Notes: generated from the letters alone by a model not told the origin. A DNA stretch of 64,000 bases from Patescibacteria group bacterium (GCA_041660885.1 JBAZVM010000008.1:7537-71536); one strand, 5' to 3'. Shown: positions 1-48,835, numbered from the stretch's first letter. Numbers and translations are program-made.

Positions 1-454
1 CGTTAAAGCGCGTTTCCAATGTTTTTCTATAATGCACGAAGTTGGCGTCGATATCTTCGGTAAGCGAGTAAGCGATGTTCACTCTTTGGGTGGGAAAAAC
101 ACTTTTCAAAACAGAAGCCAAATCCGGCTGCCAGGGATTATCCGTAGCTACCACCACTTCCGGCCCGCTTTCCGAATAGAGCACTACGCGGTATTGCCTG
201 GCCACATCTTCATTGATGCGCTGTACTTGCTCCGGAGTAGGAATATTAGAGTTTAAATCGGCATAAAGTATGCCATAATATTCCGCCACGGCCTGGCCAA
301 ATAAATCTTTGTTTATCAAGCCTTCATTGAAAAAATATTCTTCCAACAAGCCATTAGTTTTATCAGACCATTCTTCCGCTTTTTGCATGTCCTCCGGAGT
401 GGCATAGCTTCCTTTTATCAGAATATCTTTTATTATGAGGTTGCGCTCGTTCAT
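1..454 (-). CDS. PilB/GspE-like secretion ATPase, N-terminal part only (CDS runs off the left edge)
   Basis: Absent from the ORF track because no stop lies in the window. The reverse complement from ATG at 452-454 reads without stops: MNERNLIIKDILIKGSYATPEDMQKAEEWSDKTNGLLEEYFFNEGLINKDLFGQAVAEYYGILYADLNS...VVATDNPW. This is the pattern of the GspE/PilB N-terminal (T2SSE_N) domain and resembles the N-terminus of the full PilB at 49231-50976. It replaces the plus-strand ORF 32-256. Confidence 0.6.
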   Translation of the reverse strand, partial: MNERNLIIKDILIKGSYATPEDMQKAEEWSDKTNGLLEEYFFNEGLINKDLFGQAVAEYYGILYADLNSNIPTPEQVQRINEDVARQYRVVLYSESGPEVVVATDNPWQPDLASVLKSVFPTQRVNIAYSLTEDIDANFVHYRKTLETRFN

Positions 455-466
455 ATAATATTTATT

Positions 467-856
467 TTAATCTTTAGGGTGTTCTAAATATTCTTTTATA
501 TCTGAAATAATATCTTCCAGCCGAAAATCAGCTTTGGTGTAATATTTATTGACGCCCAAACGCAAATAGCTTTTTACTTTTTCCGCGCTAGCCGTATTGG
601 AAACCACGAAAACGGGAATTTTTTTCCACTGCTCATTATTTTTTATTTTCGCCACGAAATCCAGGCCGTTTTCTTCGCCAATCAAATAATGGTCCAGCCA
701 AATGGCGCTGATTTTCATTTTATCTTCCAAATAATTTAAAGCTTGTTTTACTTGTCTGGCCGTTACCACTTCAAATCCGCTTTTTGTTAATTTCGCTTTA
801 ATGGCCTCAGCCAATGGCCGTTCGTCTTCCACTACTAGGATGGTATAATTTTTCAT
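467..856 (-). CDS. Stand-alone response-regulator receiver (CheY-like), no output domain
   Basis: 129 aa with an ATG start. Receiver signature: ILVVEDE...(acidic pocket), WLDHYL (phospho-Asp region), VFVVSNT, and K in the KYYTK region. Confidence 0.85.
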   Translation of the reverse strand: MKNYTILVVEDERPLAEAIKAKLTKSGFEVVTARQVKQALNYLEDKMKISAIWLDHYLIGEENGLDFVAKIKNNEQWKKIPVFVVSNTASAEKVKSYLRLGVNKYYTKADFRLEDIISDIKEYLEHPKD

Positions 857-875
857 AAATATAAATAAATATTAA

Positions 876-3140
876 TTAACTTCCCAAAGCTTTCGTGCCC
901 GCTTTCTTTACCATGCCTTTAATAGGCAGGGATACATAAAAAGCCGTGCCTTTGTTTTCCTCGGAATCAAACCAAATCTTGCCCTGAGCTTGATCTACTA
1001 TGGCCTTTACAATGTACAACCCCAAGCCCGTGCCTTCCGTATCTTTGGCGCGCACGTTATCGGCTCGGAATAGTTTGTTATAGATTTGGCCTTGTTGAGA
1101 TTTCGGTATGCCATAACCGGTGTCTTTCACCATTATCAAAATATCTTTCCCTTTCTTGGAAATGGCTACGGAAATATTTCCTTTTTCCGGAGTGTATTTG
1201 ACCGCGTTGGAAAGTAAATTTTGAAAAACAATTCTGGTTAATTTTGGATCGGCTTTTATTTGCGGTACATCTTTTTCGTATTTTTTTATAATTTTTTGTT
1301 TTTTCGCGTTAATCGTGGCGCTTAGCTCTTTAAGAATTTCCTCGGCAAAAATGCTGATATCCAAAAGCTCCGGTTCCACCATGAAAGTGCCAAGCTCTAT
1401 GCGGGATACATCCAATAAAGCATTCACCAGATCCACCATGCGCTGGTTGCCGTGGTATATTTCTTCCAAGTACTGCTTTTGCTCCTCATTTATTTTTCCT
1501 GCGTCTCCGGCCAGCAACATTTCCGTATACCAATTAATGGAAGAAAGCGGGGTGCGCAATTGATGGCTGGCTAAAGACACAAATTCTGTTTTCGCTTGGT
1601 CTACCGCTTTTATTTTCGTAATATCGCGTTCAATGCCCACGAAAAAGGTTACATTCCCATTTTCACCGACCACCGGGGATATATTAGCTTCAGCAATATA
1701 TTTTTCTCCGCCTTTGCGCTGGTTATTTATTTCTCCCTTGAATACTTTCTTTTCCTGTTTTATTGCGCGCCACATCTTTTCGTAAAATTCTTTTGGCATC
1801 AATCCTCCCCATAACTTCAAGCAGCCGGCCTTTTCCCAAAGCACTTCTTTATTACTAAAACCGGTAATGGTTTCCACGGCTTTATTGGCGTATAAAATAC
1901 GGCCATCGGGATCCGTGATTACTATATGGTCCGAAGCATTGGCCACGGCTAATTGAAATTTTTCCAAATCATGCGCCAATTTTTCCGTTTTTTCTTTTTC
2001 TTCTTCCACGTCTTCTAAAACATTGATCATGGCTTTTTGCGCTTGTTCCGCTTCAAAATTATTTTTTACCAATTCTTCCTCCGCTTGTAGGCGCTCAATA
2101 ACTTTTCCCAAACGATCAACAATAGAATCCAACATTTGCTGCTCTCCTTTCAAAAAAATTTCTTCCCCATCATCTTTTATTTCTTCGTTATAGCCAACTT
2201 CAATTTGCCCGTAATTAGTATTATGAACATTAATCTGCCCTTTTATGCTTTTCTTTATTTCATCAGCGCGCCCGGAGGTATATTTTTTATAAGGGGCGGT
2301 TAAAGCAACAATTATTTTTTCCTCATAGCGAAAACCAGATGGCAGAGTATTTACGACTTTGGTAAAAATATCCTCAAAAGAAATATTTTTTTCCGAAATA
2401 AAATGAAAAATTTCATAAAGACACTTGGCTTGCTTGGCTGTTGCGGCTAAATTTTCAGCTTGAACTGCTAGTCTTCTTTTTATTCTTCTTTGGCTTAAAT
2501 AATAATAGAAAGAGATTAAATATATTAACAAAAATGCGGCTATTAAACTTCCCGGAAAATACATCTTCGCTTGTATCCGCTTTTCCCATAGGCTGCTCTC
2601 TACATCTACCCCCAATACTCCCACAGTTTTATTGGTTTCTAAATCATTTATGGGAATAAAAACCGAAATATAATTTCCGTATTCATCGGAATACGGACCG
2701 GCTATTACCGCTTGGTTATTTGTAAAAACATTGAATAGCTCCGCGGGGGGCTTTTCGTAAACCAAACCCGGCGTGGTATGGAAAGGATGCTCAAGCGGAA
2801 TGGAATCAACGTAGAAAAAAATTTCATTATCTTTTATACTCATCAAATATGCCCAGCGATACCCCATGTTCACTAACGGCTCTTGCATCAGATCCAGTTG
2901 CTCCCGCAATCTTACATAATCCGGGTTTTGAAGGTCTTCATCAGTTCCTGATAAATTTTCTATTCTTCGTGGATTTACCGCGGATTTAATAAACTCTCCT
3001 GTTTCCAGCAAATTAATTTTTTCTTGATTTTCCAGATTTTTCATATAAATTTCCGCGGCCATAAAGCCGACACCAACAATAACCAGAGCCCCGAAAAGGA
3101 ATATAAAAATATTAATTCTGGAAAACTTTCTATTGGCCAT
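876..3140 (-). CDS. Membrane sensor histidine kinase (extracytoplasmic sensor, PAS, HisKA, HATPase_c)
   Basis: 754 aa. An N-terminal TM helix, a sensor domain of about 180 aa and a second TM. A PAS-like region (HIVITDPDGRILYANKAVETITGF). H-box FVSLASHQLRTPL. N/G boxes LLSNAVKYTP, DTGYGIP and GTGLGLYIVK. Confidence 0.9.
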   Translation of the reverse strand: MANRKFSRINIFIFLFGALVIVGVGFMAAEIYMKNLENQEKINLLETGEFIKSAVNPRRIENLSGTDEDLQNPDYVRLREQLDLMQEPLVNMGYRWAYLMSIKDNEIFFYVDSIPLEHPFHTTPGLVYEKPPAELFNVFTNNQAVIAGPYSDEYGNYISVFIPINDLETNKTVGVLGVDVESSLWEKRIQAKMYFPGSLIAAFLLIYLISFYYYLSQRRIKRRLAVQAENLAATAKQAKCLYEIFHFISEKNISFEDIFTKVVNTLPSGFRYEEKIIVALTAPYKKYTSGRADEIKKSIKGQINVHNTNYGQIEVGYNEEIKDDGEEIFLKGEQQMLDSIVDRLGKVIERLQAEEELVKNNFEAEQAQKAMINVLEDVEEEKEKTEKLAHDLEKFQLAVANASDHIVITDPDGRILYANKAVETITGFSNKEVLWEKAGCLKLWGGLMPKEFYEKMWRAIKQEKKVFKGEINNQRKGGEKYIAEANISPVVGENGNVTFFVGIERDITKIKAVDQAKTEFVSLASHQLRTPLSSINWYTEMLLAGDAGKINEEQKQYLEEIYHGNQRMVDLVNALLDVSRIELGTFMVEPELLDISIFAEEILKELSATINAKKQKIIKKYEKDVPQIKADPKLTRIVFQNLLSNAVKYTPEKGNISVAISKKGKDILIMVKDTGYGIPKSQQGQIYNKLFRADNVRAKDTEGTGLGLYIVKAIVDQAQGKIWFDSEENKGTAFYVSLPIKGMVKKAGTKALGS

Positions 3141-4608
3141 CGTTTTTCTTTTTTTTGTTTATAACTTTTTTCAGTTCCGCCATTTTTAATTCTCGGCCGA
3201 CCATCAATTTGTTCATGCGCTCCATGATATCCGATCTTTTTCTATATTCTTCCTGTTCTTGCTTTCTTTGTGTAATATCGCGCAAGATACCCACGGCGTG
3301 ACATTTGTTTCTTATTTCCGTGGCCGTCAAAGATAACTCCACTAATATTTCACTATTATCTTTTTTTCTCATAGCTAATTCCATCGTCGTATTCAAACTG
3401 CATATGTTGCTTCCGCCCTCAAATTGCTTTATCTCTTTTTGATATTTCTCATTATCCTTTTTGGCCACTATCAAACTAAGCAGCTTTTTTCCCATAACTT
3501 CTTTTTTCGAATAACCGAATATTTTTTCAGCAGCTTCATTCCAATAAGTAATTTCAGCGTCTTCGTCTATCATGAATATGCCGTCTTTGGCCACTGTGGC
3601 GATAGAACGAAATTTTTCTTCGCTGTCTTTATATTGCGCCGCTGCTTTATCCGCGGCGTTTTGCGCCCGATTGCGGGAAGAAGAAAAAGAATAAATTAAT
3701 AAAGAAGTGCCAAAACTCATGAGAAGGCCGAAGATCAGCACTATCGATGGTAAATACTGTTCCGGACCAGTCAAACCGAAATTTTTGTTTGCGTAATATA
3801 TAAATAACCACGGATGCCCGTAGAGGTTTCGTTCTATTCGATACTCCATGTATTGGTTTTGCGCTGCGCTGTCTGCTAAATTTTTCTCGCTTTCGAATAA
3901 TAAATTGCTATTATCTATCGTGGAACTTAAGCTGGCATCCTTGATGGAAAAAAACAAATTTTCTTCATTCCCATGCGCGTTTTTTATAATATTAGATAAA
4001 AAAATATCCGCATCTATGGGTGTATTAACAAACCCGATCAAAGCTCTATTGCGTTCTTGCGCGTTGGAAATGAGTTCCCCTTCTTTATAAATGGGGATGG
4101 TAATAAAAAAACCCGGTTTATTATTGCTATACAGGGTAACCATACCAGATGCTTGCACATTATCATTATCCGCAGCCTTTTTCATGAGCGCTGCCCTTGT
4201 CGGATCTGCTTTTAAATCGGTATCAAGAACGCCAATATTCTTTTCTTCTGGATAGGCGTATTTTATCCGCCATTGTTCGGTTTGCTCTGTTTGGCTTTTC
4301 TCTATGAAATACACAGAATCTACGCCCGGATAAGCGTCAACAATATTCAACGCCTCTTCAAATTGCTGGAATTCATCTGCGTCTACAATTTCGCTGGCAT
4401 CGAATAATCCGCGCACTCCGTATAAAGCTCCGGCATATATCTCTATATTGTGTTCAATGTCTACTATTTGCTTTTCCGCCTGATTCTCAAAATTCTGGCG
4501 GGCTTTAAGATGTATATTATTTTCAAAAAAGAAATAGAAAAAAACAGAAGCGCTAATGCCAATAATAAAAAGGGCGGCCGGGAGAGCTATTGTTTTAAAA
4601 AATTTCAT
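3130..4608 (-). CDS. CHASE-like extracytoplasmic sensor plus PAS protein lacking any kinase or output domain
   Basis: 492 aa. Strong SD (AAGGAGGA) before the ATG. TM, a periplasmic domain of about 270 aa, a second TM, then PAS (DGIFMIDEDAEITYWNEAAEKIFGYSKKEV) and a C-terminal coiled coil. No H-box or ATPase motifs. The stop overlaps the start of the kinase gene by 11 nt. Confidence 0.65.
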   Translation of the reverse strand: MKFFKTIALPAALFIIGISASVFFYFFFENNIHLKARQNFENQAEKQIVDIEHNIEIYAGALYGVRGLFDASEIVDADEFQQFEEALNIVDAYPGVDSVYFIEKSQTEQTEQWRIKYAYPEEKNIGVLDTDLKADPTRAALMKKAADNDNVQASGMVTLYSNNKPGFFITIPIYKEGELISNAQERNRALIGFVNTPIDADIFLSNIIKNAHGNEENLFFSIKDASLSSTIDNSNLLFESEKNLADSAAQNQYMEYRIERNLYGHPWLFIYYANKNFGLTGPEQYLPSIVLIFGLLMSFGTSLLIYSFSSSRNRAQNAADKAAAQYKDSEEKFRSIATVAKDGIFMIDEDAEITYWNEAAEKIFGYSKKEVMGKKLLSLIVAKKDNEKYQKEIKQFEGGSNICSLNTTMELAMRKKDNSEILVELSLTATEIRNKCHAVGILRDITQRKQEQEEYRKRSDIMERMNKLMVGRELKMAELKKVINKKKKNDGQ

Positions 4609-4624
4609 GTTCCTCCTTTAAAAT

Positions 4625-4996
4625 TTATTTTAACATTTGCTCCACGTATTCCACGATTTTTGCCAAAGGAGTGTTTGATTTCACGAAATAATCCTTGGCG
4701 CCCAATTCCATCACGGTTTTTTTATCTTCCTCTTGAGATAAATTAGATGTAACAATAACATTAACCATTTTTCCTTTTTCTTTCAGTTCTCTTAGAACAT
4801 CAAAGCCGTTTTTCTTAGGCATTATTAAATCTAATAAAACCAAATCGAAATTTTCTTTAAATAGCAAATCTATGGCTTGTTCGCCATCAAAAGCCTGGAC
4901 CACTTCGTATCCGGAATGCTGTAATTTTAACGTTAAAACCTTGGAAATCGGCCTGTCGTCTTCCGCTACTAATATTCTTTTTGTTTTATCAGCCAT
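4625..4996 (-). CDS. Stand-alone response-regulator receiver
   Basis: 123 aa: ILVAEDD, LVLLDLIMPKKNGF, VIVTSNL, AKDYFVK. Confidence 0.85.
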   Translation of the reverse strand: MADKTKRILVAEDDRPISKVLTLKLQHSGYEVVQAFDGEQAIDLLFKENFDLVLLDLIMPKKNGFDVLRELKEKGKMVNVIVTSNLSQEEDKKTVMELGAKDYFVKSNTPLAKIVEYVEQMLK

Positions 4997-5082
4997 TTTT
5001 TTATATGAAAAAATAAAAAAAACTATATTTCTTAAATAATATTATAACAGATTTTTTAATGGGAAGCAAAGTGAACAAAATT

Positions 5083-5157
5083 TGGAGCGGGATACGGGAA
5101 TCGAACCCGTCTCTCATCCTTGGGAAGGATGCATAATAGCCACTATACTAATCCCGC
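5083..5157 (-). tRNA. tRNA-Gly (anticodon CCC), CCA encoded
   Basis: The reverse complement GCGGGAT..CATCC-TTCCCAA-GGATG..ACGGG-TTCGATT-CCCGT-ATCCCGC-T-CCA folds as a cloverleaf. It has a 7-bp acceptor stem, a 5-bp anticodon stem, a 7-nt loop with CCC at positions 34-36, and a T-loop TTCGATT. Confidence 0.85.
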
Positions 5158-5162
5158 AAACA

Positions 5163-6368
5163 TTACTTATTCCCCCAAATCGCGTCTAATATCTTCACTC
5201 TGGTTACTAATAAAGAAGGAATAATGCCGGCTAACATGGAAACCCAGACGAATATTTCCAATCTCATTATATAATCGGCGTATTCCAGCACCAAAGTAAC
5301 ATCGCCAATGGGCAAAGAAAAGGGGTAAGCTTTAAAATAAGTTACTATCAAACCAAAGAAAATGGCCGTGCCGATAGCTATGCCGGAAAGAGAATAAACA
5401 ACGGTTTGCAAAATATAAGTGGCGTTAATTAAATACGGGCGCACGCCAATGGCGCGCAATATGCCCACTTGCTGGCGTTTGCTGGTTACGTCAATGTAAA
5501 TCACGATAAAAATGGTTACGGCCGCGATTAATATGCCCACAATAGACATGATAACGTTAATGCTCACAAAGCTTTTCGTGATGGCCTTCATGATGCCGGC
5601 CGCTTCTTCCCAGCCGTAAAACTTACCTTTTATGTTCTTTGCTTTGATTTCTTCAATGACTTTTGCTTCTTCTCCGGTTTTGCTGATTTTCATGATAAAG
5701 CTGGTGGCTGTATTTTCGCTACCGGGGAACATTTCATTGAATGCTTTATTGGTGATGAAGGCTCTTTTATCCGTTTCTAAAAATTTGGTATAAAAAATTC
5801 CTTTAATGGTAAATTCCTTGCTTTGGCTGTCGAAGCTTAGAGTGACTTTGTCTCCCACTTTCGCGTCTTGAAAAGAGAAGGCGTTCATTTCCACTTCTTC
5901 TCCGCCCGCTATTTGCCGGCCGATTATTATCTGATCAGTGTCATCCGGGCTTAAATATTCCCCTTCAGTCATGTTATCGTAGATGTTTGTCACCCCTTTT
6001 TCTAATTCCGGATCAACTGCTAAAATAGTCCAGTTGCCCTTCACGTTCTTATACTTCATGCTGGCGGGAACGATTATTTGCGGACTGACCGCTTCAATTT
6101 TATCGATGCTTTCCAAATCGGTTTTTATCTGGCTCGTTTCCTTGAAAAAATCTTCCCCGTCCGGCGGAAGCATCATGATATTGCCGGTAAAAGTATTAAC
6201 TACTTGCTTATTGGTATTACTGATAACGCCGGCGAATAAAGAATTCACGAAAATCAAATTGATAAACGCAATGGACATTAAAAAAATAATCAAGGACAAA
6301 GTCCACTTATTGCCTCTTTTCAAATGGCACCAAAGCAGAAAAAAAGGAATTTTAAATTCTTGCTTCAT
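5163..6368 (-). CDS. ABC transporter permease, FtsX/MacB-LolE type
   Basis: 401 aa. An N-terminal TM, a large extracytoplasmic domain, then 3 C-terminal TMs with the FtsX-type motif (RQQVGILRAIGV). Overlaps the upstream ATPase gene by 4 nt. Confidence 0.8.
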   Translation of the reverse strand: MKQEFKIPFFLLWCHLKRGNKWTLSLIIFLMSIAFINLIFVNSLFAGVISNTNKQVVNTFTGNIMMLPPDGEDFFKETSQIKTDLESIDKIEAVSPQIIVPASMKYKNVKGNWTILAVDPELEKGVTNIYDNMTEGEYLSPDDTDQIIIGRQIAGGEEVEMNAFSFQDAKVGDKVTLSFDSQSKEFTIKGIFYTKFLETDKRAFITNKAFNEMFPGSENTATSFIMKISKTGEEAKVIEEIKAKNIKGKFYGWEEAAGIMKAITKSFVSINVIMSIVGILIAAVTIFIVIYIDVTSKRQQVGILRAIGVRPYLINATYILQTVVYSLSGIAIGTAIFFGLIVTYFKAYPFSLPIGDVTLVLEYADYIMRLEIFVWVSMLAGIIPSLLVTRVKILDAIWGNK

Positions 6369-7036
6369 ATTATTTTTCCATCGGCTAAATGAATGATACG
6401 ATTGGCGAATACCTCTTCTTCCGGTTCGTGGGTGACCATGACAATCGTATGATTATCGTGTTTATTTAATTCTTTTAGAATTTTCATAACAGAATTGGCG
6501 GCCTGGGTATCCAAATTGGCCGTGGGCTCGTCCGCGAAAATCACTTTAGGATCGTTGATCAAAGCGCGGGCAATGGCCACTTTCTGTTTTTCTCCGCCGG
6601 AAAGCTGGTTCGGTAAACTTTTTATTCTTCTCTCCATTCCGACTTTAGATAATAAACGATGCGCTCTTTTTTCGCATTCTATTTTTTTATTAAGAAGCAT
6701 GGCGGGAAGCATGACATTTTCCAAAGCGGTTAGTTCGGAAAGCAAAGCGTATTCCTGAAAAATATAGCCAATTTTTGTTAAACGCATTTTCGCTCTTAAT
6801 TTTTCTTTCATCTGAATAACTTCCTCGTCTAATAAATGTATGGTTCCGGAATCGGGTTTATCCAATAAACCTAATTGCCTGAGCAAGGTGGATTTGCCGG
6901 AGCCGTTGCGTCCTTTAATAATTAAAAAATCTCCTTCGTGCAAATCGAAAGAAACCCCCTTTAAAGCGTGTACTTTTACATGCCCGCTTTCGTAAAATTT
7001 ATGAATATTGTGAACGGATACTATTTTATTCGGCAT
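6365..7036 (-). CDS. ABC transporter ATP-binding protein (MacB/LolD-like)
   Basis: Walker [11 protein letters not shown]-loop, signature [15 protein letters not shown], Walker [10 protein letters not shown]-loop VTHE. The start is moved to ATG 7034-7036 ([11 protein letters not shown]...) because the longer ORF (to 7099) runs through tRNA-Pro. Confidence 0.9.
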
Positions 7037-7050
7037 ATTACTTATGAATT

Positions 7051-7127
7051 TGGTCGGGGTAGAGAGACTCGAACTCTCGACCTCATGCACCCCATGCATG
7101 CGCGCTAGCCAACTGCGCTATACCCCG
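7051..7127 (-). tRNA. tRNA-Pro (anticodon GGG), CCA encoded
   Basis: Reverse complement CGGGGTA-TA-GCGC-AGTTGGCTA-GCGC-G-CATGC-ATGGGGT-GCATG-AGGTC-GAGAG-TTCGAGT-CTCTC-TACCCCG-A-CCA. This is a perfect cloverleaf of 77 nt with anticodon GGG. Confidence 0.88.
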
Positions 7128-7169: not shown

Positions 7170-7560
7170 TTAAGTGAAATGTGACCGCCGACCGCACGAA
7201 CGCGATTTGAAATCGAGTCCGCGCAGCCGACGGTGTCCCTTCAGATACGGTGCCAGCGGCTGATGCCGTCGGCACTTCGACGAAGGGTGAAGGTCCAGAC
7301 CAAGCCAGTAGCAAGGTCCTTTCCCTCGTAGAAACTGCGACCGCCCACGCACCAAAACCGAAGGACCAGAATCCCTACCATGATCCACCCCCTGACAAAA
7401 ACAAAAAGGCTTCTTACCCCAATAATAGTTCGGATAAAAAGCCTTCTTGCTTTTGCCCACTTGCGCGAGCCGTATCGTTCCCTTAGGGTAGGTTTTGCCA
7501 CCTTATCCAAAAGACAGGTTGGCGAGCAGTCATCGGGCCTAATCCCTCGTGCTTCTCTTG
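7170..7560 (-). ncRNA. Unclassified structured RNA candidate (strand uncertain)
   Basis: About 390 nt, visibly GC-richer than the surroundings and covered only by four mutually overlapping low-complexity ORFs on both strands. Complementary segments: 7182-7193 (TGAC-CGCCGACC) with 7517-7532 (GGTTGGCG-agca-GTCA); 7227-7233 CCGACGG with 7266-7272 CCGTCGG; 7315-7321 GGTCCTT with 7361-7367 AAGGACC; 7406-7412 AAGGCTT with 7439-7445 AAGCCTT. A GCTATAAT -10 motif on the minus strand at 7605-7612 and co-orientation with tRNA-Pro favour the minus strand. Confidence 0.45.
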
Positions 7561-7604
7561 ATAGTTTTAATTCTTAAAGAGCTATAAAAAGATACTAACA
7601 ATAA

Positions 7605-7612
7605 ATTATAGC
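7605..7612 (-). promoter_or_regulatory. Candidate -10 element (GCTATAAT) upstream of the GC-rich RNA region
   Basis: The minus strand reads cGCTATAATttat, overlapping the stop codon of the 7606-8148 gene. The same 8-mer precedes four other transcription units in this window. Confidence 0.35.
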
Positions 7613-8148
7613 GCCGTCAAATTTTTACGATCAATATTATAAAATCCCCACTCGCTCCAGCGCCAAATGGCTTGATATTTTGGTTTGCACTTATATTTTT
7701 TGGTGTATTCTCCTTCTAATACCACCAACTCGTTCTTACCATCATTATCTATGTCCTTTATTTCCGCGGAACAATTCGGTTTATTTAAATTAGAAGACTG
7801 CCAAACGGAATTTACCGTTTCCCCATCTAATTGATAAAGAAATAAATGATTCTTTATGGAATCATCATTCTTCCGCACCCAAAAAGGCTTGGACGAACCG
7901 TAATCGCCCGGTTTCCAAACCAATAAATTTATCTCGGTTTGGCCGTCGTTATTGCTGTCCGCCAAAATAAATTGGTCCACATGCCATTCTTTGGGCGTCT
8001 GCCATAAATGTTTATCGTTTTTCGTTATGGTGAAAATATTGTTTTGCAATGAATAACAAACGCCTGCCATACATTCAACGGTACGGACATGCCATGGCAT
8101 GTCCGTACGCGATAATAAAAAATACAACGCGATTAAAATTAATTCCAT
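7606..8148 (-). CDS. Small FG-GAP/VCBS-like repeat protein with an N-terminal hydrophobic anchor
   Basis: 180 aa. ADSNNDGQTEINLLVW and IKDIDNDGKNELVVLEG are FG-GAP/VCBS-type Ca-binding loop motifs. The ATG directly abuts the upstream TAA (TAAATG). Confidence 0.55.
   Translation of the reverse strand: MELILIALYFLLSRTDMPWHVRTVECMAGVCYSLQNNIFTITKNDKHLWQTPKEWHVDQFILADSNNDGQTEINLLVWKPGDYGSSKPFWVRKNDDSIKNHLFLYQLDGETVNSVWQSSNLNKPNCSAEIKDIDNDGKNELVVLEGEYTKKYKCKPKYQAIWRWSEWGFYNIDRKNLTAL
8081..8108. repeat. Perfect 28-nt GC-rich palindrome inside the CDS
   Basis: GTACGGACATGCCA|TGGCATGTCCGTAC. The two 14-nt arms are exact reverse complements. It encodes ..RTDMPWHVRT.. just after the hydrophobic N-terminus. 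Confidence 0.9.
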
Positions 8149-13221: not shown

Positions 13222-13683
13222 TTATCTTTCGTCCGCTCCGTAGACCCAATCAAAATCCATTTTTTTATATTCGAAAATTTCGTCTTTCTTGAAAAAGCGT
13301 TTAATTTCTTTTTTGGCGGTTTCAGCGGAATCGGAAGCGTGCACGATATTGCATTGCGTGCTCATGGCAAAATCTCCGCGAATGGAACCGGCATCGGCTT
13401 CCCTACCCTTGGTGGGGCCCACGATCAAGCGAATGGCGCTGACCGCTTCCACGCCTTCCAAAGCCATAACCACAACCGGAGAAGCTTGCATGAATTTTTT
13501 TAGGTTCTTGAAAAACGGTTTATCTTTATGATGAGAATAGTGCTCGTCTATTTTTAAATCGTCGATGGCCATCATTTTTAAACCAACCAATTTCAAACCC
13601 TTGCGCTCAAAACGATGGATAATTTCCCCCAATAAATTACGCTGTAAAGCATCAGGCTTTACGATAATCAATGTTCTTTCCAT
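13222..13683 (-). CDS. ndk: Nucleoside diphosphate kinase
   Basis: MERTLIIVKPDA...LVGLK...GPTKG...IRGDFA...NIVHASDS is the canonical Ndk sequence with the active-site His in NIVHAS. Confidence 0.95.
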   Translation of the reverse strand: MERTLIIVKPDALQRNLLGEIIHRFERKGLKLVGLKMMAIDDLKIDEHYSHHKDKPFFKNLKKFMQASPVVVMALEGVEAVSAIRLIVGPTKGREADAGSIRGDFAMSTQCNIVHASDSAETAKKEIKRFFKKDEIFEYKKMDFDWVYGADER

Positions 13684-13684
13684 A

Positions 13685-14059
13685 TTATTTTTTCTTTTTT
13701 AACAATGATTTTACTTTGGAAACGACTTCCGCAGGCGTATGATTGGCTTTAATAAAATAGTCGTCCGCGCCAAGTTCTTTGCCCTTTTTTATGTCTTCGT
13801 CTTGGCCCAAATTGGTTAACATGATCACCGGAGTATTCTGTAAATCTTTATCCGCTTTTATTCTTTTTAAAGTTACGAACCCGTCCATTTTCGGCATGAT
13901 AATATCCAATAAAACCAAATCCGGCTTTTCTTCTTTGGCTTTTTTCAGGCCATCCGAGCCATTATAAGCGGAGATTACTTTATAGCCGTCTTGGCTGAAT
14001 TTTTGCGTATACATGCTATGGAGCATTTCGTCGTCTTCCACTAAGAGAATTTTTGGCAT
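13685..14059 (-). CDS. Stand-alone response-regulator receiver
   Basis: 124 aa: ILLVEDD, LVLLDIIMPKMDGF, VIMLTNL, ADDYFIK. The stop lies 1 nt from the ndk start. Confidence 0.85.
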   Translation of the reverse strand: MPKILLVEDDEMLHSMYTQKFSQDGYKVISAYNGSDGLKKAKEEKPDLVLLDIIMPKMDGFVTLKRIKADKDLQNTPVIMLTNLGQDEDIKKGKELGADDYFIKANHTPAEVVSKVKSLLKKKK

Positions 14060-14124: not shown

Positions 14125-15531
14125 TTAGGCATTTTCAAAGGCATAACCTAAGCGCAGAATATCGCTTTCCCTGAATTGATCCCCGATAATCTGCATACCC
14201 ACTGGCAAACCTTTCACTTCACCAGCCGGTATAGAAAGCGCCGGAACTCCGGCTAAATTTATAGGTGCGGTTAAAATATCCGCCAAATACATGGAAATAG
14301 GATCTTGGCATTTTTCGCCTAATTTAAAAGCGGTGGTTGGCGCGGTTGGGGTAACCAGACAATCAACTTGCTTAAAAACATTCTCAAAATCTTTTCGGAT
14401 AAGCGTGCGCACTTTAGAAGCTTGCCTGTAATAGGCATCGATATATCCGGCGGATAAACTGTAGGCGCCGATCATGATTCTTCTTTTTACTTCATCGCCA
14501 AAGCCTTGGGCGCGTGATTTTTCGTAAACATCGAGCAGTTCTTCCGCGCCGGCGGCTTTAAAGCCGTATTTTATGCCGTCGTACCTGGCCAGATTAGAAC
14601 TGACTTCCGATGGCACAATAATATAATAAACCGGTATGGCGTATTTTGTATGCGGCAGGCTGACTTCCGTAATTTTTGCTCCCAGCTTTTTTATTTTTTC
14701 AATAGCTTGCTCTATCGTTTGTTTCACATCGTTATCTAAACCTTCCACGTAAAAAAATTCTTTTGGTATGCCCACTTTCATGCCTTTGATGCTTTTTTTC
14801 ATATCTTTAATATAATCAGGAACGATAACGTCGGGCGTGGTGCTATCGAATTTATCTTTTCCGGCAATGGCCTGTAATACCAAAGCGGCGTCTTCCACGT
14901 CTTGGGTAATGGGGCCGATAGTGTCTAAAGAAGAAGCCATGGCAATAACTCCGTAGCGCGACACTCTACCATAAGTAACTTTCAAACCAACCAAGCCGCA
15001 AAAGCTGGCGGGCTGGCGGATGGAGCCGCCGGTATCGGTACCCAAAGCAAACACCGCTTGGTTTGAAGCCACGGCGCAAGCCGCGCCTGAAGAAGAACCG
15101 CCGGGTACGCGGGTTTCATCAATAGGATTTTTAGTAGGACCAAAAGCCGAAGACTCGCCGGAAACCCCCATGGCAAATTCATCCATATTGGCTTTGCCCA
15201 GCAACACCGCATCGTTTAATTTATTTACCGCAGTAGCGTTGAAAGGCGGAACATACGGCTCTAATATTTTTGAGCCGGCCGTAGTTCTGATATTTTTCGT
15301 ACAAAAATTATCTTTCAGCGCGTAAGGTATGCCGGTTAAAATATTGCAATCCTCTTCCGCTAATAATTTGTCCGCTTCCTTAGCCGCCTCTAAAGCTTCT
15401 TTTTCTAAAATAGTAATAAAAGCATTAAGATTATTTTTCTTCTTGATATTCTTTAAATATTCTTTGGTCAATTCCAAAGAAGAAATTTCTTTATTGATTA
15501 GCTGATTATGCAATTTTAAAATCTGGCCCAT
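14125..15531 (-). CDS. gatA: Glu-tRNA(Gln)/Asp-tRNA(Asn) amidotransferase subunit A
   Basis: 468 aa with the amidase signature GGSSSGAACAVA...GTDTGGSIRQPASFCG. Overlaps the gatC stop as TAATG. Confidence 0.95.
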   Translation of the reverse strand: MGQILKLHNQLINKEISSLELTKEYLKNIKKKNNLNAFITILEKEALEAAKEADKLLAEEDCNILTGIPYALKDNFCTKNIRTTAGSKILEPYVPPFNATAVNKLNDAVLLGKANMDEFAMGVSGESSAFGPTKNPIDETRVPGGSSSGAACAVASNQAVFALGTDTGGSIRQPASFCGLVGLKVTYGRVSRYGVIAMASSLDTIGPITQDVEDAALVLQAIAGKDKFDSTTPDVIVPDYIKDMKKSIKGMKVGIPKEFFYVEGLDNDVKQTIEQAIEKIKKLGAKITEVSLPHTKYAIPVYYIIVPSEVSSNLARYDGIKYGFKAAGAEELLDVYEKSRAQGFGDEVKRRIMIGAYSLSAGYIDAYYRQASKVRTLIRKDFENVFKQVDCLVTPTAPTTAFKLGEKCQDPISMYLADILTAPINLAGVPALSIPAGEVKGLPVGMQIIGDQFRESDILRLGYAFENA

Positions 15532-40719: not shown

Positions 40720-42702
40720 TTACAAAATACTAATAAATTCTTTTTCTGAAAGGATTTTTATGTTAATTTTCTTTGCTTTCGTATATTTAGAGCCAGGTTC
40801 CTCCCCCGCAATTACATAATCGGTCTGTTTAGAAACTGAGGAGGAAATATTTCCGCCGGCTTGCCTGATTTTTTCTTTGGCTTCATCGCGCGTCATGGTT
40901 TTTAAAGTGCCGGTTAAGACGAATGTGTTGCCGGTTATCGATTTATTGGCGGAGACGCGATAAATCGCGTCTCTACGGATACACACCCCATTTTGCAATA
41001 ATTTTTTTATTAAATCCTTATTTTTCTTATCTTGAAAAAAATCATACACGCTTTTGGCCATCACTTCTCCCACTTCGTGAATTTTATTAAGTTCTTCTTG
41101 GGAAGCGTTTATTAATTTGGAAAGCGAACCAAACTGGCCAGCCAAGTCATAAGCGGTTTCTTCACCCACATGGCGTATGCCCAAAGCGTAAATGAATTTA
41201 GCAAAAGAAACCTCTTTAGCTTTGGCAATACTCTTAATTAGATTGTCCGCGGATTTTTCCGCGAATCGTTCCAACAGCTGCAGATCTTCTTTTCTTAGAG
41301 AAAAAATATCAGCCGCGTCCGCGATCAATCCTTCTTCCAGCAGCTGATCTATAATTTTCGGGCCAAGGCCGTCGATATCAAAGGCTTTTTTAGAAACAAA
41401 ATGATAAAGCTTTTCTTTTTCTTGCGCAAAGCATTGCTTGTTGGAACAATAATGCGCCACTTCGCCTTCGCGGCGCAGAACTTTGGAACCGCATGCCGGG
41501 CAAGTCTTGGGAAAAATAAAAGCCTTGGCATTATTCGGCCGCAAATTTTTTAGCACTTTAACAATATCGGGGATAATATCTCCGGCCTTCTGGATGATTA
41601 CCGTGTCCCCTACGCGCACATCCAGCCTTTTTATTTCATCTTCATTATGCAAAGTAGCACGGGCGACTGTTGTTCCGGCCACAGATACCGGTTTTAAATG
41701 CGCTACGGGTGTCAGCGCGCCCGTGCGGCCTACTTGTACTTGAATATCCTCCACAATAGTCGTTGCTTGCTCGGCCGGATATTTATAGGCGATTCCTCCT
41801 CTAGGCGCTTTACCGGCCACTCCCAACTTTTTAAACAACGCAATATCATTTACGTTAATCACCGTGCCATCGGACCAGTAATTAAATTTTTTGCGTATCT
41901 TACCGATTTTTTCGTAATATTTTTCTACTTCGTTTAAATCACGGCAATGAGCGTTATGCTCGTTGCTTCTAAACCCCAAGCGCGTTAATTCTTGATGCAC
42001 TTGTTCGTGCGTGGCAAGCCCGATATCGGAAGCAATATCATAAGCCATAAAATCCAGCTTGCGCGAGGCGGGAATTTTTGGGTCCAACTGGCGGATAGAG
42101 CCGGCCGCGATATTGCGCGGGTTCGCGTATTTGCCTTCTTCTCGCTTATTCAAAGCCTCAAAATTTTTCTTGCTCATATACACTTCCCCACGCACCTCTA
42201 TTTTTTTTGGGAAAGGTTCGTTTAATTTTAATGGAATGGAATTAATTGTCTTTAAATTAGAAGTGACGTCTTCTCCGATTTTTCCGTCCCCTCTTGTGGA
42301 ACCTTGCGTTAATAAACCGTTTTCGTAAATTAAATTAACAGCCAAGCCGTCCATTTTTATTTCCGCGTAATAATCAAATTTATCCTGCGGCGCCAACTTT
42401 TTTATTCTTTTTTCCCAATCCTGAAGTTCATCAAAGCTAAAGCAATCCACCAGCGAAAGCATGGGTTTGCTATGAGCGACTTTATGAAAAGCGGCCAGCG
42501 CTTTTCCCGCCACCCTTTGCGTGGGTGAATCCGGCGTAATTAAAACGGGCCACTCCTGCTCCAATATAAAAAGCTCGCGCTTTAGCGAATCTAAAGCCGC
42601 GTCGGATATTTCTTGCTTATCCAAAACATGATACTGATAACGGTAATGGTTTATCTCTTTTTTTAATTTTTCTATTCTGGCCTTAGCTTCAGATTTATTC
42701 AT
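40720..42702 (-). CDS. ligA: NAD-dependent DNA ligase
   Basis: 660 aa. Adenylation motif KMDGLA, an OB fold, a Zn finger CPACGSKVLRREGEVAHYCSNKQC, HhH repeats and a C-terminal BRCT (FVLTGTL...R.EAKEKI...GG.ISSSVSKQTDYVIAGE.PGSK..KA). Confidence 0.95.
   Translation of the reverse strand: MNKSEAKARIEKLKKEINHYRYQYHVLDKQEISDAALDSLKRELFILEQEWPVLITPDSPTQRVAGKALAAFHKVAHSKPMLSLVDCFSFDELQDWEKRIKKLAPQDKFDYYAEIKMDGLAVNLIYENGLLTQGSTRGDGKIGEDVTSNLKTINSIPLKLNEPFPKKIEVRGEVYMSKKNFEALNKREEGKYANPRNIAAGSIRQLDPKIPASRKLDFMAYDIASDIGLATHEQVHQELTRLGFRSNEHNAHCRDLNEVEKYYEKIGKIRKKFNYWSDGTVINVNDIALFKKLGVAGKAPRGGIAYKYPAEQATTIVEDIQVQVGRTGALTPVAHLKPVSVAGTTVARATLHNEDEIKRLDVRVGDTVIIQKAGDIIPDIVKVLKNLRPNNAKAFIFPKTCPACGSKVLRREGEVAHYCSNKQCFAQEKEKLYHFVSKKAFDIDGLGPKIIDQLLEEGLIADAADIFSLRKEDLQLLERFAEKSADNLIKSIAKAKEVSFAKFIYALGIRHVGEETAYDLAGQFGSLSKLINASQEELNKIHEVGEVMAKSVYDFFQDKKNKDLIKKLLQNGVCIRRDAIYRVSANKSITGNTFVLTGTLKTMTRDEAKEKIRQAGGNISSSVSKQTDYVIAGEEPGSKYTKAKKINIKILSEKEFISIL
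40952..40973. repeat. GC-rich inverted repeat (10-bp arms, 2-nt centre) inside ligA
   Basis: GAGACGCGAT-aa-ATCGCGTCTC. It encodes ..RRDAIYRVS.. in the linker between the HhH and BRCT domains. Confidence 0.85.
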
Positions 42703-44657: not shown

Positions 44658-45166
44658 CTTATTTGTGAAGTTACTCCGTTAATAGTTATGTTTTTAGTTA
44701 AAGCCGAATTCACGGTACTGACTAAAGTAAAATTATAATCCGATGTGAACTGCGCACCATCGGCATAAGCTTTGCCTTCATAAAGGGAAAAAACAATATC
44801 GCGATGAAGGCCGGACACCCTTTGTATGTTTGTTTTGTTATCTAAATAATAAATTTCTATATCGCTATCATTCATAGGGCCGTCATATTTATAATTTCCA
44901 TTAATATCCAAATATAAAATATATTTATTTTCCTCATACCACGGCCCAACTACGCCATACCCATAACCGACAATGCCCGATGGAATGTTATATCCGCTTA
45001 TGGCGTAATTGCGCGCTTGCTCTATAACGCTGATCATTTGTTTTCTGTTGTTTTCCAAATCTTTTTCGGGGCTTCTTTGCCTGGTGATGAATAACAAAGC
45101 GGATAAAGCTATAATAGCGGTTACCACCATCACTTCCACTAAAGTAAAGCCGGTATTTTTTTTCAT
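44654..45166 (-). CDS. Minor pilin, GspH/FimT-like
   Basis: MKKNTG|FTLVEVMVVTAIIALSALLF. The ATG at 45164-45166 overlaps the pilD stop (ATGA). Confidence 0.7.
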   Translation of the reverse strand: MKKNTGFTLVEVMVVTAIIALSALLFITRQRSPEKDLENNRKQMISVIEQARNYAISGYNIPSGIVGYGYGVVGPWYEENKYILYLDINGNYKYDGPMNDSDIEIYYLDNKTNIQRVSGLHRDIVFSLYEGKAYADGAQFTSDYNFTLVSTVNSALTKNITINGVTSQIR

Positions 45167-45918: not shown

Positions 45919-45933
45919 AGCTTTATTATAACA

Positions 45934-45965
45934 AAAAAAGCCCCTCAATAAAAGGGGCTTTTTTC
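45934..45965 (-). terminator. Intrinsic terminator after the major pilin gene
   Basis: The minus strand reads AAAAAAGCCCC-ttttattga-GGGGCTTTTTTT, starting 12 nt after the pilA stop. A GC-core stem plus a U-tract. Confidence 0.8.
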
Positions 45966-48820: not shown

Positions 48821-48835
48821 AGAACAAAGCAAAAT

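What the first reader, a model, noticed from the sequence alone, without database searches (positions are those of the whole stretch)
1..4996. Split sensory module (kinase-less CHASE-PAS protein plus histidine kinase) bracketed by two orphan receivers, directly upstream of a second PilB-like ATPase
Seen in the sequence: the minus-strand order is receiver (4625-4996), CHASE-like/PAS protein without a transmitter (3130-4608), PAS histidine kinase (876-3140, start overlapped by 11 nt), receiver (467-856), then a PilB/GspE-like ATPase (1-454, truncated by the window edge).

None of the four receivers in the window has a DNA-binding or enzymatic output domain.

Inference: two separately encoded sensors may form one signalling complex. 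Its single-domain receivers may act directly on a pilus or secretion motor ATPase rather than on transcription.
Basis: partly seen in the sequence, partly recalled or inferred. Interest (0 to 1): 0.55.

Follow-up and report, generated by a model that had tools for sequence, protein, structure and literature searches.

The report
Pilus-linked two-component operon, split sensor
In a Patescibacteria (CPR) genome, one conserved operon joins a two-protein membrane sensor-kinase and three output-less receiver proteins to a second, minimal type IV pilus machine. The signalling logic is of a known kind, but the kinase-less sensor ends in a conserved helix that marks a large, apparently undescribed class of kinase partner proteins.

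Summary
An identical longer contig shows what follows: GspE/PilB-type ATPase, PilC, four pilin-like proteins and a third receiver.

The same gene set recurs with one-to-one orthologs in a Magasanikbacteria genome, and the REC-sensor-kinase-REC cassette recurs next to all three full-length kinase orthologs.

The kinase-less sensor is not a pseudogene. Relatives at 26-32% identity keep the same architecture and a near-invariant basic C-terminal helix. In one relative, a single fused gene replaces the sensor+kinase pair in the same operon slot, joining the sensor to the kinase just before a conserved acidic "N.LED" helix.

The tail defines a large family (16,883 cluster representatives). None of 79 tail-bearing genes has a transmitter, and 74% have a kinase gene just downstream.

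Direct action of the receivers on the pilus ATPase is plausible (synteny, published precedents) but untested. Verdict: a new variant of a known kind, of moderate interest.

The parts
5041..5049 (-). Promoter-like extended -10 element (TGTTATAAT), about 45 nt upstream of the first receiver's ATG and just after tRNA-Gly (5083-5157)
   Evidence: Read from the sequence; tRNA. A consensus match only, not shown to be functional. The generic promoter scan is not enriched over shuffles.
4625..4996 (-). REC_A: stand-alone canonical receiver (123 aa), first gene of the operon
   Evidence: Pfam Response_reg 7.9e-24. D13, D57 and K109 equivalents are kept. Orthologs are 54% identical in L116 and 61% in L008, and there they lie directly upstream of the ATPase.
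3130..4608 (-). Transmitter-less membrane sensor (492 aa): TM1, extracellular CHASE, TM2, cytoplasmic PAS, C-terminal helix
   Evidence: Pfam CHASE 7e-22 and PAS 1.1e-17, with no HisKA or HATPase. AF2 model pLDDT 74.8. The CHASE part matches PcrK 6k62 (TM 0.74-0.75) and AHK4. Kinase-less relatives at 26-32% identity. A Shine-Dalgarno sequence AAGGAGG precedes the ATG.
3133..3273 (-). C-terminal 'tail' helix (aa 446-492; core motif NKLMVGRELKMAELKK = aa 466-481, window 3166-3213); basic, net charge +6 over a 27-residue segment
   Evidence: A single predicted helix 446-490. Near-invariant in 13 aligned tails. 16,883 cluster representatives match the tail profile, almost always at the extreme C-terminus. 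No Pfam or NCBIfam model covers it.
876..3140 (-). Complete class-I histidine kinase (754 aa): TM, PDC-like extracellular domain, TM, unassigned cytoplasmic region, N.LED helix, PAS, HisKA (H526), HATPase_c
   Evidence: Pfam. The extracellular domain is confidently modelled (pLDDT 73-88), but its fold assignment rests only on secondary-structure order and a weak Pfam hint, E = 0.12. Full-length orthologs at 44-49% identity. The C-terminal core is 55-66% identical across many Patescibacteria kinases.
1989..2036 (-). 'N.LED' input helix of the kinase core (aa 369-384, KAMINVLEDVEEEKEK); acidic, net charge -4 over a 27-residue segment
   Evidence: The only such regex match in the six-frame translation of the 64-kb window. 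Present in 103 of 120 kinase-core homologs and in 20 of 25 kinases directly downstream of tail-bearing sensors, against 1 of 60 control PAS kinases. It is the point of fusion in P0273.
467..856 (-). REC_B: stand-alone canonical receiver (129 aa, cREC_REC-like subtype) directly after the kinase; the likely cognate substrate
   Evidence: Pfam Response_reg 4.4e-15 and cREC_REC 5.7e-10. Catalytic residues kept. 68% identical ortholog in L116 and 49% in L118; a receiver of this type directly follows the kinase in all five related contexts examined.
1..454 (-). 5' part (151 codons) of a GspE/PilB-superfamily assembly ATPase (533 aa in full), first gene of a minimal type IV filament module
   Evidence: MshEN 5.6e-10. 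The full gene is on L001, which matches the window over 5,112 bp with 0 mismatches: MshEN + T2SSE. NCBIfam GspE 467 bits (cut-off 630) and PilB 460 bits (cut-off 676). The gap from REC_B is 12 nt with no terminator.

Best explanation
This is a conserved Patescibacteria operon that places a second, minimal type IV filament machine under the control of a two-component pathway with a two-protein sensor.

Shown here:
- Gene order (window plus identical contig L001): REC_A, CHASE-PAS sensor, kinase, REC_B, GspE/PilB-type ATPase, PilC, four pilin-like proteins (one with an LVIVD beta-propeller, adhesin-like), REC_C.
- The genes are tightly packed (gaps of 12-19 nt or overlaps), with one promoter-like element in front.
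- The module has no PilD, PilM or PilT of its own. Those genes are in the primary pilus cluster at about 43.5-55 kb.
- The kinase is complete. All three receivers are canonical and have no output domain.

Inferred, step 1: the kinase-less CHASE-PAS protein is an accessory co-sensor of the kinase. Its 45-residue basic C-terminal helix docks in trans on the acidic N.LED helix that feeds the kinase's PAS-DHp core. In fused kinases that helix receives the signal in cis from HAMP or PAS. The kinase would then integrate two extracellular inputs (CHASE and its own PDC-like domain) and cytoplasmic PAS inputs.

Inferred, step 2: the kinase phosphorylates REC_B (always its downstream neighbour) and probably REC_A and REC_C.

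Inferred, step 3: the phosphorylated receivers act post-translationally on the pilus motor, as EmvR, DrdR and PilG/PilH do. REC_A is the best candidate for contacting the ATPase. Pilus assembly would then follow external cues such as host or surface contact.
For: Anatomy.

Conserved unit:
- L116/L117 (Magasanikbacteria) carries one-to-one orthologs of all parts in a permuted order: ATPase 59%, REC_B 68%, REC_C 60%, REC_A 54%, kinase 44%, sensor 31%.
- The REC-sensor-kinase-REC cassette lies next to all three full-length kinase orthologs.
- A kinase and a stand-alone REC also flank this ATPase type in L008, L012 and L013.

Sensor-kinase partnership:
- The same 11-nt overlap is seen in L004 at 26% identity.
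- In L118 one fused gene replaces the pair in the same slot, between p136 and REC_B orthologs. The fusion joins at window-kinase residue 352, keeps N.LED and lacks the tail.

Tail family:
- 16,883 representatives, with the match at the C-terminus.
- 0 of 79 tail-bearing ORFs have a transmitter.
- A kinase gene starts within 3 kb downstream in 34 of 46 cases, against 7 of 43 upstream (p = 5e-8).
- 20 of 25 directly downstream kinases carry N.LED, against 1 of 60 control kinases (p = 7e-14).
- The pairing spans loci of 28-68% GC.
- Charges are complementary: +6 for the window tail and -4 for the window N.LED segment.
- The tail is one long helix in the AF2 model.

Receivers: catalytic residues are intact and there are no output domains.

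Precedents for direct action on PilB: PMC11973254 and PMC13507683.
Against: - No physical interaction (sensor-kinase or receiver-ATPase) could be computed or measured here.
- N.LED is a general feature of this kinase core (103 of 120 homologs). L008's kinase has it with no tail-bearing sensor within 17 kb. The tail/N.LED co-occurrence could therefore partly reflect family co-inheritance rather than docking.
- Both motifs are nearly invariant, so no covariation test is possible.
- The receiver next to the ATPase here is REC_B, not the REC_A type found there in relatives.
- Some close ATPase relatives (L009 at 52%, L010 and L011) have no kinase or receiver within 3.5-10 kb upstream.
- PilC is split by a frameshift on the only contig that covers it, so the module might be inactive in this strain.
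- The remainder of the genome could not be inspected for DNA-binding response regulators or Hpt proteins.
Confidence: 0.55

Rival explanations
1. The stand-alone receivers do not touch the pilus motor. They act as phosphate sinks or as relay steps toward an output encoded elsewhere (an Hpt protein or a DNA-binding regulator). Control of the pilus genes would then be transcriptional or indirect, and the synteny would only reflect co-regulation.
For: Three receivers for one kinase is typical of branched or sink architectures (general knowledge of two-component systems). The receivers resemble OmpR/PhoB-type receiver domains most closely in NCBIfam. The window holds two more stand-alone receivers at unrelated sites, one of them next to NDK. 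So output-less receivers may simply be the norm in this genome.
Against: No Hpt or DNA-binding regulator lies in the operon or in any of the related loci. The three receiver orthogroups are individually conserved with the pilus genes. A REC_A type abuts the ATPase in several lineages, and another receiver lies between PilB and PilT in the primary cluster.
Confidence: 0.27
2. The CHASE-PAS protein signals independently of the adjacent kinase. Its conserved tail binds another target, for example a receiver, the ATPase or PilC, or merely dimerises the protein. Adjacency to kinases would then reflect shared regulation only.
For: A tail-bearing sensor is not always followed by a kinase: the immediately following gene is a kinase in 25 of 68 scorable cases. 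L006/L007 and L003 have periplasmic-binding-protein-like genes downstream. Stand-alone receivers are also enriched downstream, 19 of 46.
Against: The Rosetta-stone fusion in L118 occupies the same slot and lacks the tail. The kinase is specifically downstream (34 of 46 against 7 of 43 upstream). The downstream kinases carry N.LED. Many of them are about 300-aa kinases with no sensor of their own beyond N-terminal N.LED repeats.
Confidence: 0.12
3. The kinase-less CHASE-PAS gene is a decayed remnant of a once-fused CHASE kinase.
For: Fused CHASE-PAS-HisKA-HATPase relatives exist: P0018 at 25% identity and P0273.
Against: Five kinase-less homologs at 26-33% mutual identity have the same length, full-length conservation and a near-invariant C-terminal motif. 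The ORF is intact with a strong Shine-Dalgarno sequence. The tail shows no profile similarity to a DHp/H-box (hhalign probability 0.04%). The architecture belongs to a family of thousands.
Confidence: 0.02
4. A rival on function: the second filament module is a competence (DNA-uptake) pseudopilus rather than an adhesion or motility pilus, and the two-component cassette times DNA uptake.
For: In L116/L117 the cassette is followed directly by a ComEC-type gene (DUF4131 + Competence). The pilin-like proteins give weak ComGD, ComGE and ComGF hits, and the ATPase a sub-threshold ComGA hit of 252 bits against a cut-off of 300. The module has no PilT.
Against: No ComEC lies in the window, L001 or L008-L035. 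All Com-family hits are below curated cut-offs. One pilin-like protein carries a beta-propeller with a variable C-terminal region, which is more typical of an adhesin.
Confidence: 0.2

Closest known systems
EmvR-ColS/ColR (Xanthomonas oryzae) and DrdR (X. campestris): output-less receivers that bind PilB (and PilT) and change ATPase activity (PMC11973254, PMC13507683)
   Same: Receiver-only response regulators, phosphorylated by a classical histidine kinase, that control type IV pili post-translationally. This is the mechanism proposed here for REC_A, REC_B or REC_C.
   Different: EmvR and DrdR are genetically unlinked 'orphans' in Proteobacteria. Here the receivers are co-operonic with the kinase and the ATPase, there are three distinct conserved orthogroups, and no interaction has been shown.
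Pil-Chp chemosensory system with PilG/PilH (Pseudomonas; own knowledge)
   Same: CheY-like single-domain receivers tune pilus extension and retraction.
   Different: Chp uses a CheA-type kinase (ChpA), CheW-like couplers and an MCP (PilJ). The kinase here is a class-I HisKA kinase, and no CheA, CheW or MCP gene is in the operon.
FimS-AlgR next to the fimU-pilVWXY1E minor-pilin operon, and PilS-PilR (Pseudomonas; own knowledge)
   Same: A two-component pair encoded beside pilin or minor-pilin genes and controlling them.
   Different: AlgR (LytTR) and PilR (NtrC-type AAA+ with HTH) are DNA-binding regulators. None of the receivers here has an output domain.
Accessory sensor proteins of histidine kinases (WalK-YycH/YycI, LuxP-LuxQ, TorT-TorS; own knowledge; WalK-YycH model 9a5d was the top fold-search hit by E-value)
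   Same: A separately encoded, transmitter-less protein modulates a complete kinase.
   Different: Those partners act through periplasmic or transmembrane contacts. Here the inferred contact is a cytoplasmic, conserved basic C-terminal helix meeting an acidic N.LED helix, and the partner is itself a full TM-CHASE-TM-PAS sensor.
'Split histidine kinases' such as Hik36-Hik43 (PMC7656254) or CheA3/CheA4 (PMC3591291)
   Same: Kinase function is distributed over two polypeptides. Hik36-Hik43 also controls cell aggregation.
   Different: There the catalytic functions (phospho-acceptor and ATP-binding parts) are split. Here the kinase is catalytically complete, and only the sensory input is on a second protein.
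CHASE receptors PcrK (Xanthomonas) and AHK4 (Arabidopsis)
   Same: Same extracellular CHASE fold (Pfam 7e-22; TM 0.74-0.75 and about 0.65).
   Different: Those are fused to their own transmitter. This protein ends after PAS plus the tail helix.

Membership tests
Two-component histidine kinase (class I, HisKA type) | DHp domain with a phospho-acceptor His in an H-box, plus a GHKL ATP-binding domain | tested here: met
   HisKA 5.2e-18 and HATPase_c 1.3e-26, both above cut-offs. H526 in 'SHQLRTPL' is invariant in orthologs.
Response-regulator receiver (CheY-like), phosphorylatable | Acidic pair, phospho-acceptor Asp, and conserved Thr/Ser, Tyr/Phe and Lys (CheY D12/D13, D57, T87, Y106, K109) | tested here: met
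   Alignment with E. coli CheY (sequence recalled from memory): D13, D57 and K109 are invariant, with E/D12, S/T87 and Y/F106 kept in REC_A, REC_B, REC_C and their orthologs.
CHASE domain sensors | Extracellular CHASE domain flanked by two TM helices | tested here: met
   Pfam CHASE 78.6 bits (cut-off 25). The AF2 model has helices 2-71 and 281-325 flanking an alpha/beta domain. Fold matches to PcrK and AHK4 CHASE domains.
Type IV pilus / T2SS assembly ATPase (PilB / GspE equivalogs) | Score above the curated equivalog cut-off for PilB (TIGR02538) or GspE (TIGR02533) | tested here: not met
   460 bits against a cut-off of 676 (PilB) and 467 against 630 (GspE). Superfamily membership (Pfam T2SSE + MshEN) is met. 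I therefore file it as a GspE/PilB-superfamily ATPase only.
Type IV filament system (minimal) | Assembly ATPase + PilC/GspF platform + prepilin-type subunits (N-terminal methylation motif) | tested here: met
   T2SSE ATPase, T2SSF platform, and N_methyl / GFxxxE-type N-termini in the 142-aa and 159-aa proteins. The 485-aa and 136-aa proteins look pilin-like by eye. Caveats: PilC is split by one extra T on L001, and PilD, PilM and PilT are present only in the primary cluster.
PilS-PilR or FimS-AlgR type pilus regulation | Response regulator with a DNA-binding output (NtrC AAA+/HTH or LytTR) | tested here: not met
   All receivers of the operon are 123-129 aa and Response_reg only.
Pil-Chp chemosensory pathway | CheA-type kinase (Hpt + P5), CheW coupler and MCP receptor | tested here: not met
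   The kinase is HisKA-type. No CheA, CheW or MCP domains appear in the called genes of L001, L116 or L118. The rest of the genome was not searched.
Split histidine kinase (catalytic functions on two polypeptides) | Phospho-acceptor and ATP-binding modules on separate proteins | tested here: not met
   Both modules are in the 754-aa kinase. The partner has neither, and its tail has no profile similarity to a DHp.
Tail-bearing transmitter-less sensors (family defined here; no curated model found) | Sensor domains followed by a terminal '..E.NKLMVGRELKM.ELK..' helix; no transmitter; kinase gene downstream | tested here: met
   The window protein scores 75.4 bits (E = 2.4e-16) against the tail profile, which was built from 13 tails that include the window protein's own. 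The match lies at residues 442-491 of 492. There is no HisKA or HATPase, and the kinase gene overlaps its 3' end.
MshEN c-di-GMP-binding ATPases | Tandem RLGxx(L/V/I)(L/V/I)xxG(L/V/I)(L/V/I)xxxxLxxxLxxQ motifs in the N-domain (own knowledge of the published motif) | not tested
   Only the Pfam MshEN match was obtained. By eye the Arg and Gly of the RLG triplets seem to be missing, but no formal test was run.

The most novel reading that the evidence does not exclude
The basic C-terminal tail ('NKLMVGRELKM.ELKK') and the acidic 'N.LED' helix form a general plug-and-socket pair. Through it, free-standing sensor proteins of many architectures (CHASE, MEDS, multi-PAS) would attach in trans to histidine kinases. 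These include about 300-aa kinases that consist only of N.LED repeats plus the catalytic core. This would be a widespread, modular and so far undescribed way of building and rewiring two-component sensors. In CPR bacteria it would gate a host- or surface-responsive pilus.
Probability: 0.4. Interest if true: 0.72.

Novelty: new variant of a known kind. Interest (0 to 1): 0.5.

Why it matters
CPR/Patescibacteria depend on type IV pili for motility and host attachment (PMC9894109). The two key CPR papers I checked mention no response regulator or histidine kinase at all, and how pilus activity is regulated in CPR bacteria appears to be largely unknown. A conserved operon that wires a kinase, an accessory CHASE sensor and three output-less receivers to a pilus ATPase gives a concrete, testable regulatory circuit for these organisms.

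The tail/N.LED pairing reaches further. It would explain thousands of 'PAS domain S-box proteins' that lack any output domain. It would also offer a simple rule for predicting which kinase such a protein serves, which is useful for annotation and for engineering sensors.

Tried and rejected
1. The idea that the tail is a degenerate DHp helix-1/H-box (VGRELK resembling MSHELR with His to Arg) is rejected. hhalign of the tail profile against a DHp profile gives probability 0.04%.
2. The pseudogene-remnant idea is rejected.
3. Pfam and NCBIfam give nothing significant for the tail, the N.LED repeats, the kinase's extracellular domain (only MCP-like_PDC_1 at E = 0.12) or its region 225-340.
4. Literature searches for the motif strings found nothing relevant. 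'Split histidine kinase' papers concern a different kind of split.
5. An independent copy of the PilC region could not be obtained. Only the Logan contig is readable, although an 83-kb NCBI contig exists, so the frameshift could not be adjudicated.
6. ComEC linkage is found only in L116/L117.
7. The first metagenome scan, using the alignment that included the fused P0018, failed for lack of conserved columns. It was rerun without that sequence.
8. The AF2 model of the full kinase is poor (pLDDT 53, 4 sequences). Only its extracellular domain is usable, so I did not fold-search it.
9. Contigs of P0268 and P0269 came without DNA, so the tails of their CHASE-PAS genes could not be read.


Full report
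**1. Observation**

Pfam confirms every domain call:
- 4625-4996: Response_reg only.
- 3130-4608: CHASE (7e-22) plus PAS (1.1e-17), with no transmitter.
- 876-3140: PAS, HisKA and HATPase_c.
- 467-856: Response_reg only.
- 1-454: an MshEN N-domain.

The kinase ATG (3140) overlaps the end of the sensor gene (3130) by 11 nt. The other junctions are 16, 19 and 12 nt.

The window has four stand-alone receivers of 123-129 aa and no other receiver-containing gene. It has only one kinase.

The organism is labelled 'Patescibacteria group bacterium' by NCBI.

**2. What lies beyond the window edge**

A Logan contig, L001, matches the window over 5,112 bp without a mismatch and continues for about 6.7 kb. 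It shows, in order:
- the full 533-aa ATPase (MshEN + T2SSE);
- a PilC/T2SSF platform;
- a 142-aa prepilin (GFTLVE N-terminus);
- a 485-aa pilin-like protein with LVIVD beta-propeller repeats;
- two further small pilin-like proteins (159 and 136 aa);
- a third stand-alone receiver, REC_C;
- a 325-aa protein with no family match.

The ATPase scores below the curated equivalog cut-offs of both PilB and GspE, so I call it a superfamily member only.

The module has no prepilin peptidase, PilM or PilT. These are in the primary pilus cluster of the window: PilM 53884-54981, PilB 49231-50976, a receiver 48836-49213, PilT 47735-48832, PilC 46520-47731, a pilin 45977-46456, PilD 45163-45948, and three more pilins.

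On L001, PilC is split by one extra T in a T5 run. PilC is intact in L008 and L116.

**3. One transcription unit?**

No terminator-like site falls in any junction, and the generic scans are not enriched over shuffles. The REC_B-to-ATPase gap is 12 AT-rich nucleotides. An extended -10 element (TGTTATAAT, 5041-5049) lies between tRNA-Gly and REC_A, and a strong Shine-Dalgarno sequence precedes the sensor gene. Transcription itself was not observed.

**4. Conservation of the whole unit**

The kinase has three full-length orthologs at 44-49% identity. All three sit in a REC / CHASE-PAS / kinase / REC(cREC type) cassette.

In the Magasanikbacteria locus L116/L117 every part has a one-to-one ortholog, in a permuted order: REC1, ATPase, PilC, pilins, CHASE-PAS, kinase, REC2, REC3. 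Identities to the window's proteins:

| Window / L001 protein | L116 ortholog | Identity |
|---|---|---|
| ATPase | ATPase | 59% |
| REC_B | REC2 | 68% |
| REC_C | REC3 | 60% |
| REC_A | REC1 | 54% |
| kinase | kinase | 44% |
| CHASE-PAS sensor | CHASE-PAS | 31% |
| p136 | p126 | 43% |
| p159 | p165 | 37% |
| pilin142 | pil142 | 33% |

Further points on linkage:
- The closest relative of the sensor (L006/L007) has p159 and p136 orthologs directly upstream of it.
- Among 28 genome loci found with the ATPase, a stand-alone receiver lies directly upstream of the ATPase in L008 (61% to REC_A) and L013, and near it in L012. Each of these loci also has a kinase nearby, with a different sensory input in each.
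- About 20 more distant loci labelled as non-CPR genomes (Firmicutes, Proteobacteria and others) lack this arrangement, and so do some CPR loci (L009, L010, L011).

The linkage of kinase, receivers and this filament module is thus a recurrent trait of several CPR lineages, not a coincidence of this contig.

**5. The kinase-less sensor is a conserved design**

Four full-length homologs at 26-32% identity have the same length and CHASE+PAS architecture without a transmitter. All end in the same sequence, '..ELERMNKLMVGRELKMAELKK..'.

The AF2 model (pLDDT 74.8) gives TM1, a CHASE alpha/beta domain, TM2, PAS, and then a single 45-residue helix at 446-490, which is this tail. The CHASE part superposes on Xanthomonas PcrK and Arabidopsis AHK4.

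A profile of 13 tails finds 16,883 cluster representatives at E <= 1e-3 (2,961 at <= 1e-10) among 1.84 billion. In the best 146:
- the motif sits at the extreme C-terminus (median 20 residues after it);
- none has an H-box;
- the architectures upstream of the tail vary (CHASE, MEDS, one to many PAS).

Neither Pfam nor NCBIfam covers the tail, and the motif string occurs in no searchable paper. The tail is not a degenerate H-box.

**6. Evidence that the tail-bearing sensor works with the kinase**

(a) Gene order. In 80 metagenome loci fetched through the tail motif:
- none of the 79 tail-bearing ORFs has a transmitter;
- the next gene is a kinase in 25 of 68 scorable cases, often with a 4- or 11-nt overlap;
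- with at least 1.5 kb of flank, a kinase gene starts within 3 kb downstream in 34 of 46 cases, against 7 of 43 upstream (p = 5e-8);
- a stand-alone receiver follows in 19 of 46.

(b) A kinase-side partner element.
- 20 of 25 directly downstream kinases carry '[AT][LM]LN[ILVM]LED', against 1 of 60 PAS kinases not chosen by position (p = 7e-14).
- In about 300-aa kinases this element forms N-terminal tandem 21-residue repeats and is the only thing in front of the DHp.
- The pairs span loci of 28-68% GC.
- In the 64-kb window the two regexes match once each, in the two adjacent genes.
- The tail is basic and the N.LED segment acidic: +6 and -4 here, +2.3 and -1.7 on average.

(c) Rosetta stone. 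P0273 (891 aa) is a CHASE-PAS sensor fused to the kinase core.
- The sensor part is 28% identical to the window sensor over residues 7-467. The core is 64% identical to the window kinase from residue 352.
- The junction reads '...NKELENTKRGILNILEDIQEEK...': N.LED is kept and the tail is absent.
- In its contig (L118) the fusion occupies the very slot of the separate pair, between orthologs of PilC, pilin142, the adhesin-like pilin, p159 and p136 on one side and REC_B (49%) on the other.

Caveats. N.LED is a general feature of this kinase core: 103 of 120 homologs have it, including kinases with their own dCache-HAMP input. L008's kinase has it without a tail-bearing neighbour. I read N.LED as the core's input helix, used in cis by fused sensors and, by inference, in trans by tail-bearing ones. 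Docking itself is not shown.

**7. The receivers**

All receivers keep the CheY catalytic set, so they are genuine phospho-acceptors rather than pseudo-receivers.
- REC_B (cREC_REC-like) follows the kinase in every context and is the most conserved protein of the set. It is the likeliest cognate substrate.
- REC_A is the type found next to the ATPase in relatives.
- REC_C is the third conserved orthogroup.

None has an output domain, and no Hpt or DNA-binding regulator lies in any of the loci. Published work shows that such receivers can bind PilB and/or PilT and change ATPase activity: EmvR represses PilB, and DrdR stimulates PilB and PilT. A further receiver lies between PilB and PilT in the window's primary cluster.

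Direct action on the motor is therefore the most economical reading. It remains an inference, and a sink or relay role is the main rival.

**8. What the filament does**

This is unknown. The variable beta-propeller pilin suggests an adhesive tip complex. The ComEC gene after the cassette in L116 and the weak Com-family hits suggest DNA uptake, but ComEC is not linked elsewhere.

**9. Comparison and verdict**

The circuit works like known receiver-to-PilB control (EmvR, DrdR, PilG/PilH) combined with an accessory sensor for a kinase (WalK-YycH/I, LuxPQ). It is not a member of the PilS-PilR, FimS-AlgR, Pil-Chp or 'split kinase' families, because their defining features are absent.

The CPR pilus papers I checked do not mention two-component genes.

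I rate it a new variant of a known kind. The operon is a useful, conserved regulatory module for CPR pili. The tail/N.LED pairing is the part that could be new and general.

Noticed in passing
L036-L115 (metagenome loci); proteins P0121-P0266: The sensor's C-terminal tail defines a very large family of transmitter-less sensors (16,883 representatives). A histidine-kinase gene typically follows, carrying an acidic 'N.LED' helix. In about 300-aa kinases this helix forms N-terminal tandem 21-residue repeats and is the only element in front of the catalytic core. No curated family model or paper was found for either element.
   Followed up: yes
window 7185-7465 (minus strand), next to the SAM riboswitch at 7469-7567: A GC-rich, ORF-less stretch of about 280 nt lies between a SAM-I riboswitch aptamer (51 bits) and tRNA-Pro (7051-7127). 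It folds into four long hairpins at -141.7 kcal/mol, z = -9.0 against shuffles, and matches no Rfam family. No methionine or SAM gene follows the riboswitch. The next CDS on that strand is an ABC ATPase followed by an FtsX-type permease.
   Followed up: partly
L001 7073-7077 (outside the window, PilC gene of the second pilus module): PilC is split into 286-aa and 94-aa ORFs by one extra T in a T5 run. Removing one T restores a continuous reading frame. PilC is intact in L008, L116 and L118. This is either a homopolymer error or a real, possibly phase-variable, frameshift.
   Followed up: partly
window 48836-49213 (minus strand): A stand-alone receiver (125 aa, 42% identical to REC_C) is embedded between PilB (49231-50976) and PilT (47735-48832) of the primary type IV pilus cluster. 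This is a second receiver-motor adjacency in the same genome.
   Followed up: partly
window 13685-14059 and 13222-13683 (minus strand): Another stand-alone receiver (124 aa, 44% identical to REC_A) lies directly upstream of a nucleoside diphosphate kinase gene, with no histidine kinase nearby.
   Followed up: no
L116 13079-14605 (and L117): In the Magasanikbacteria ortholog locus, a ComEC-type gene (DUF4131 + Competence) directly follows the cassette, then a methyltransferase and a metallo-beta-lactamase-fold gene. This hints that the second filament could serve DNA uptake. The arrangement is not seen in the window or in the other loci.
   Followed up: partly
window 2120-2470 approx. (kinase residues about 225-340): In the three full-length orthologs this stretch is a first PAS domain. 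In the window's kinase it is replaced by sequence with no Pfam match and a low-confidence model, so the window kinase has one PAS where its orthologs have two.
   Followed up: partly
P0188, P0222, P0241 (tail-profile hits): A minority of tail-bearing proteins continue for about 75-100 residues after the tail into a further conserved region ('...DS..H..L...') with no family match.
   Followed up: no
window 15915-40654 (minus strand): Three consecutive giant ORFs (1,690, 3,127 and 3,389 aa) lie between the amidase gene (14125-15531) and the DNA ligase gene (40720-42702). FG-GAP-repeat proteins lie at 55083-57563 and 7606-8148. These may be surface proteins; the giant ORFs were not examined.
   Followed up: no
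window 6365-7099 (minus strand): The mechanical ORF call for the ABC ATPase overlaps tRNA-Pro (7051-7127). The real start is probably the ATG near 7036 (MPNKIVS...).
   Followed up: no
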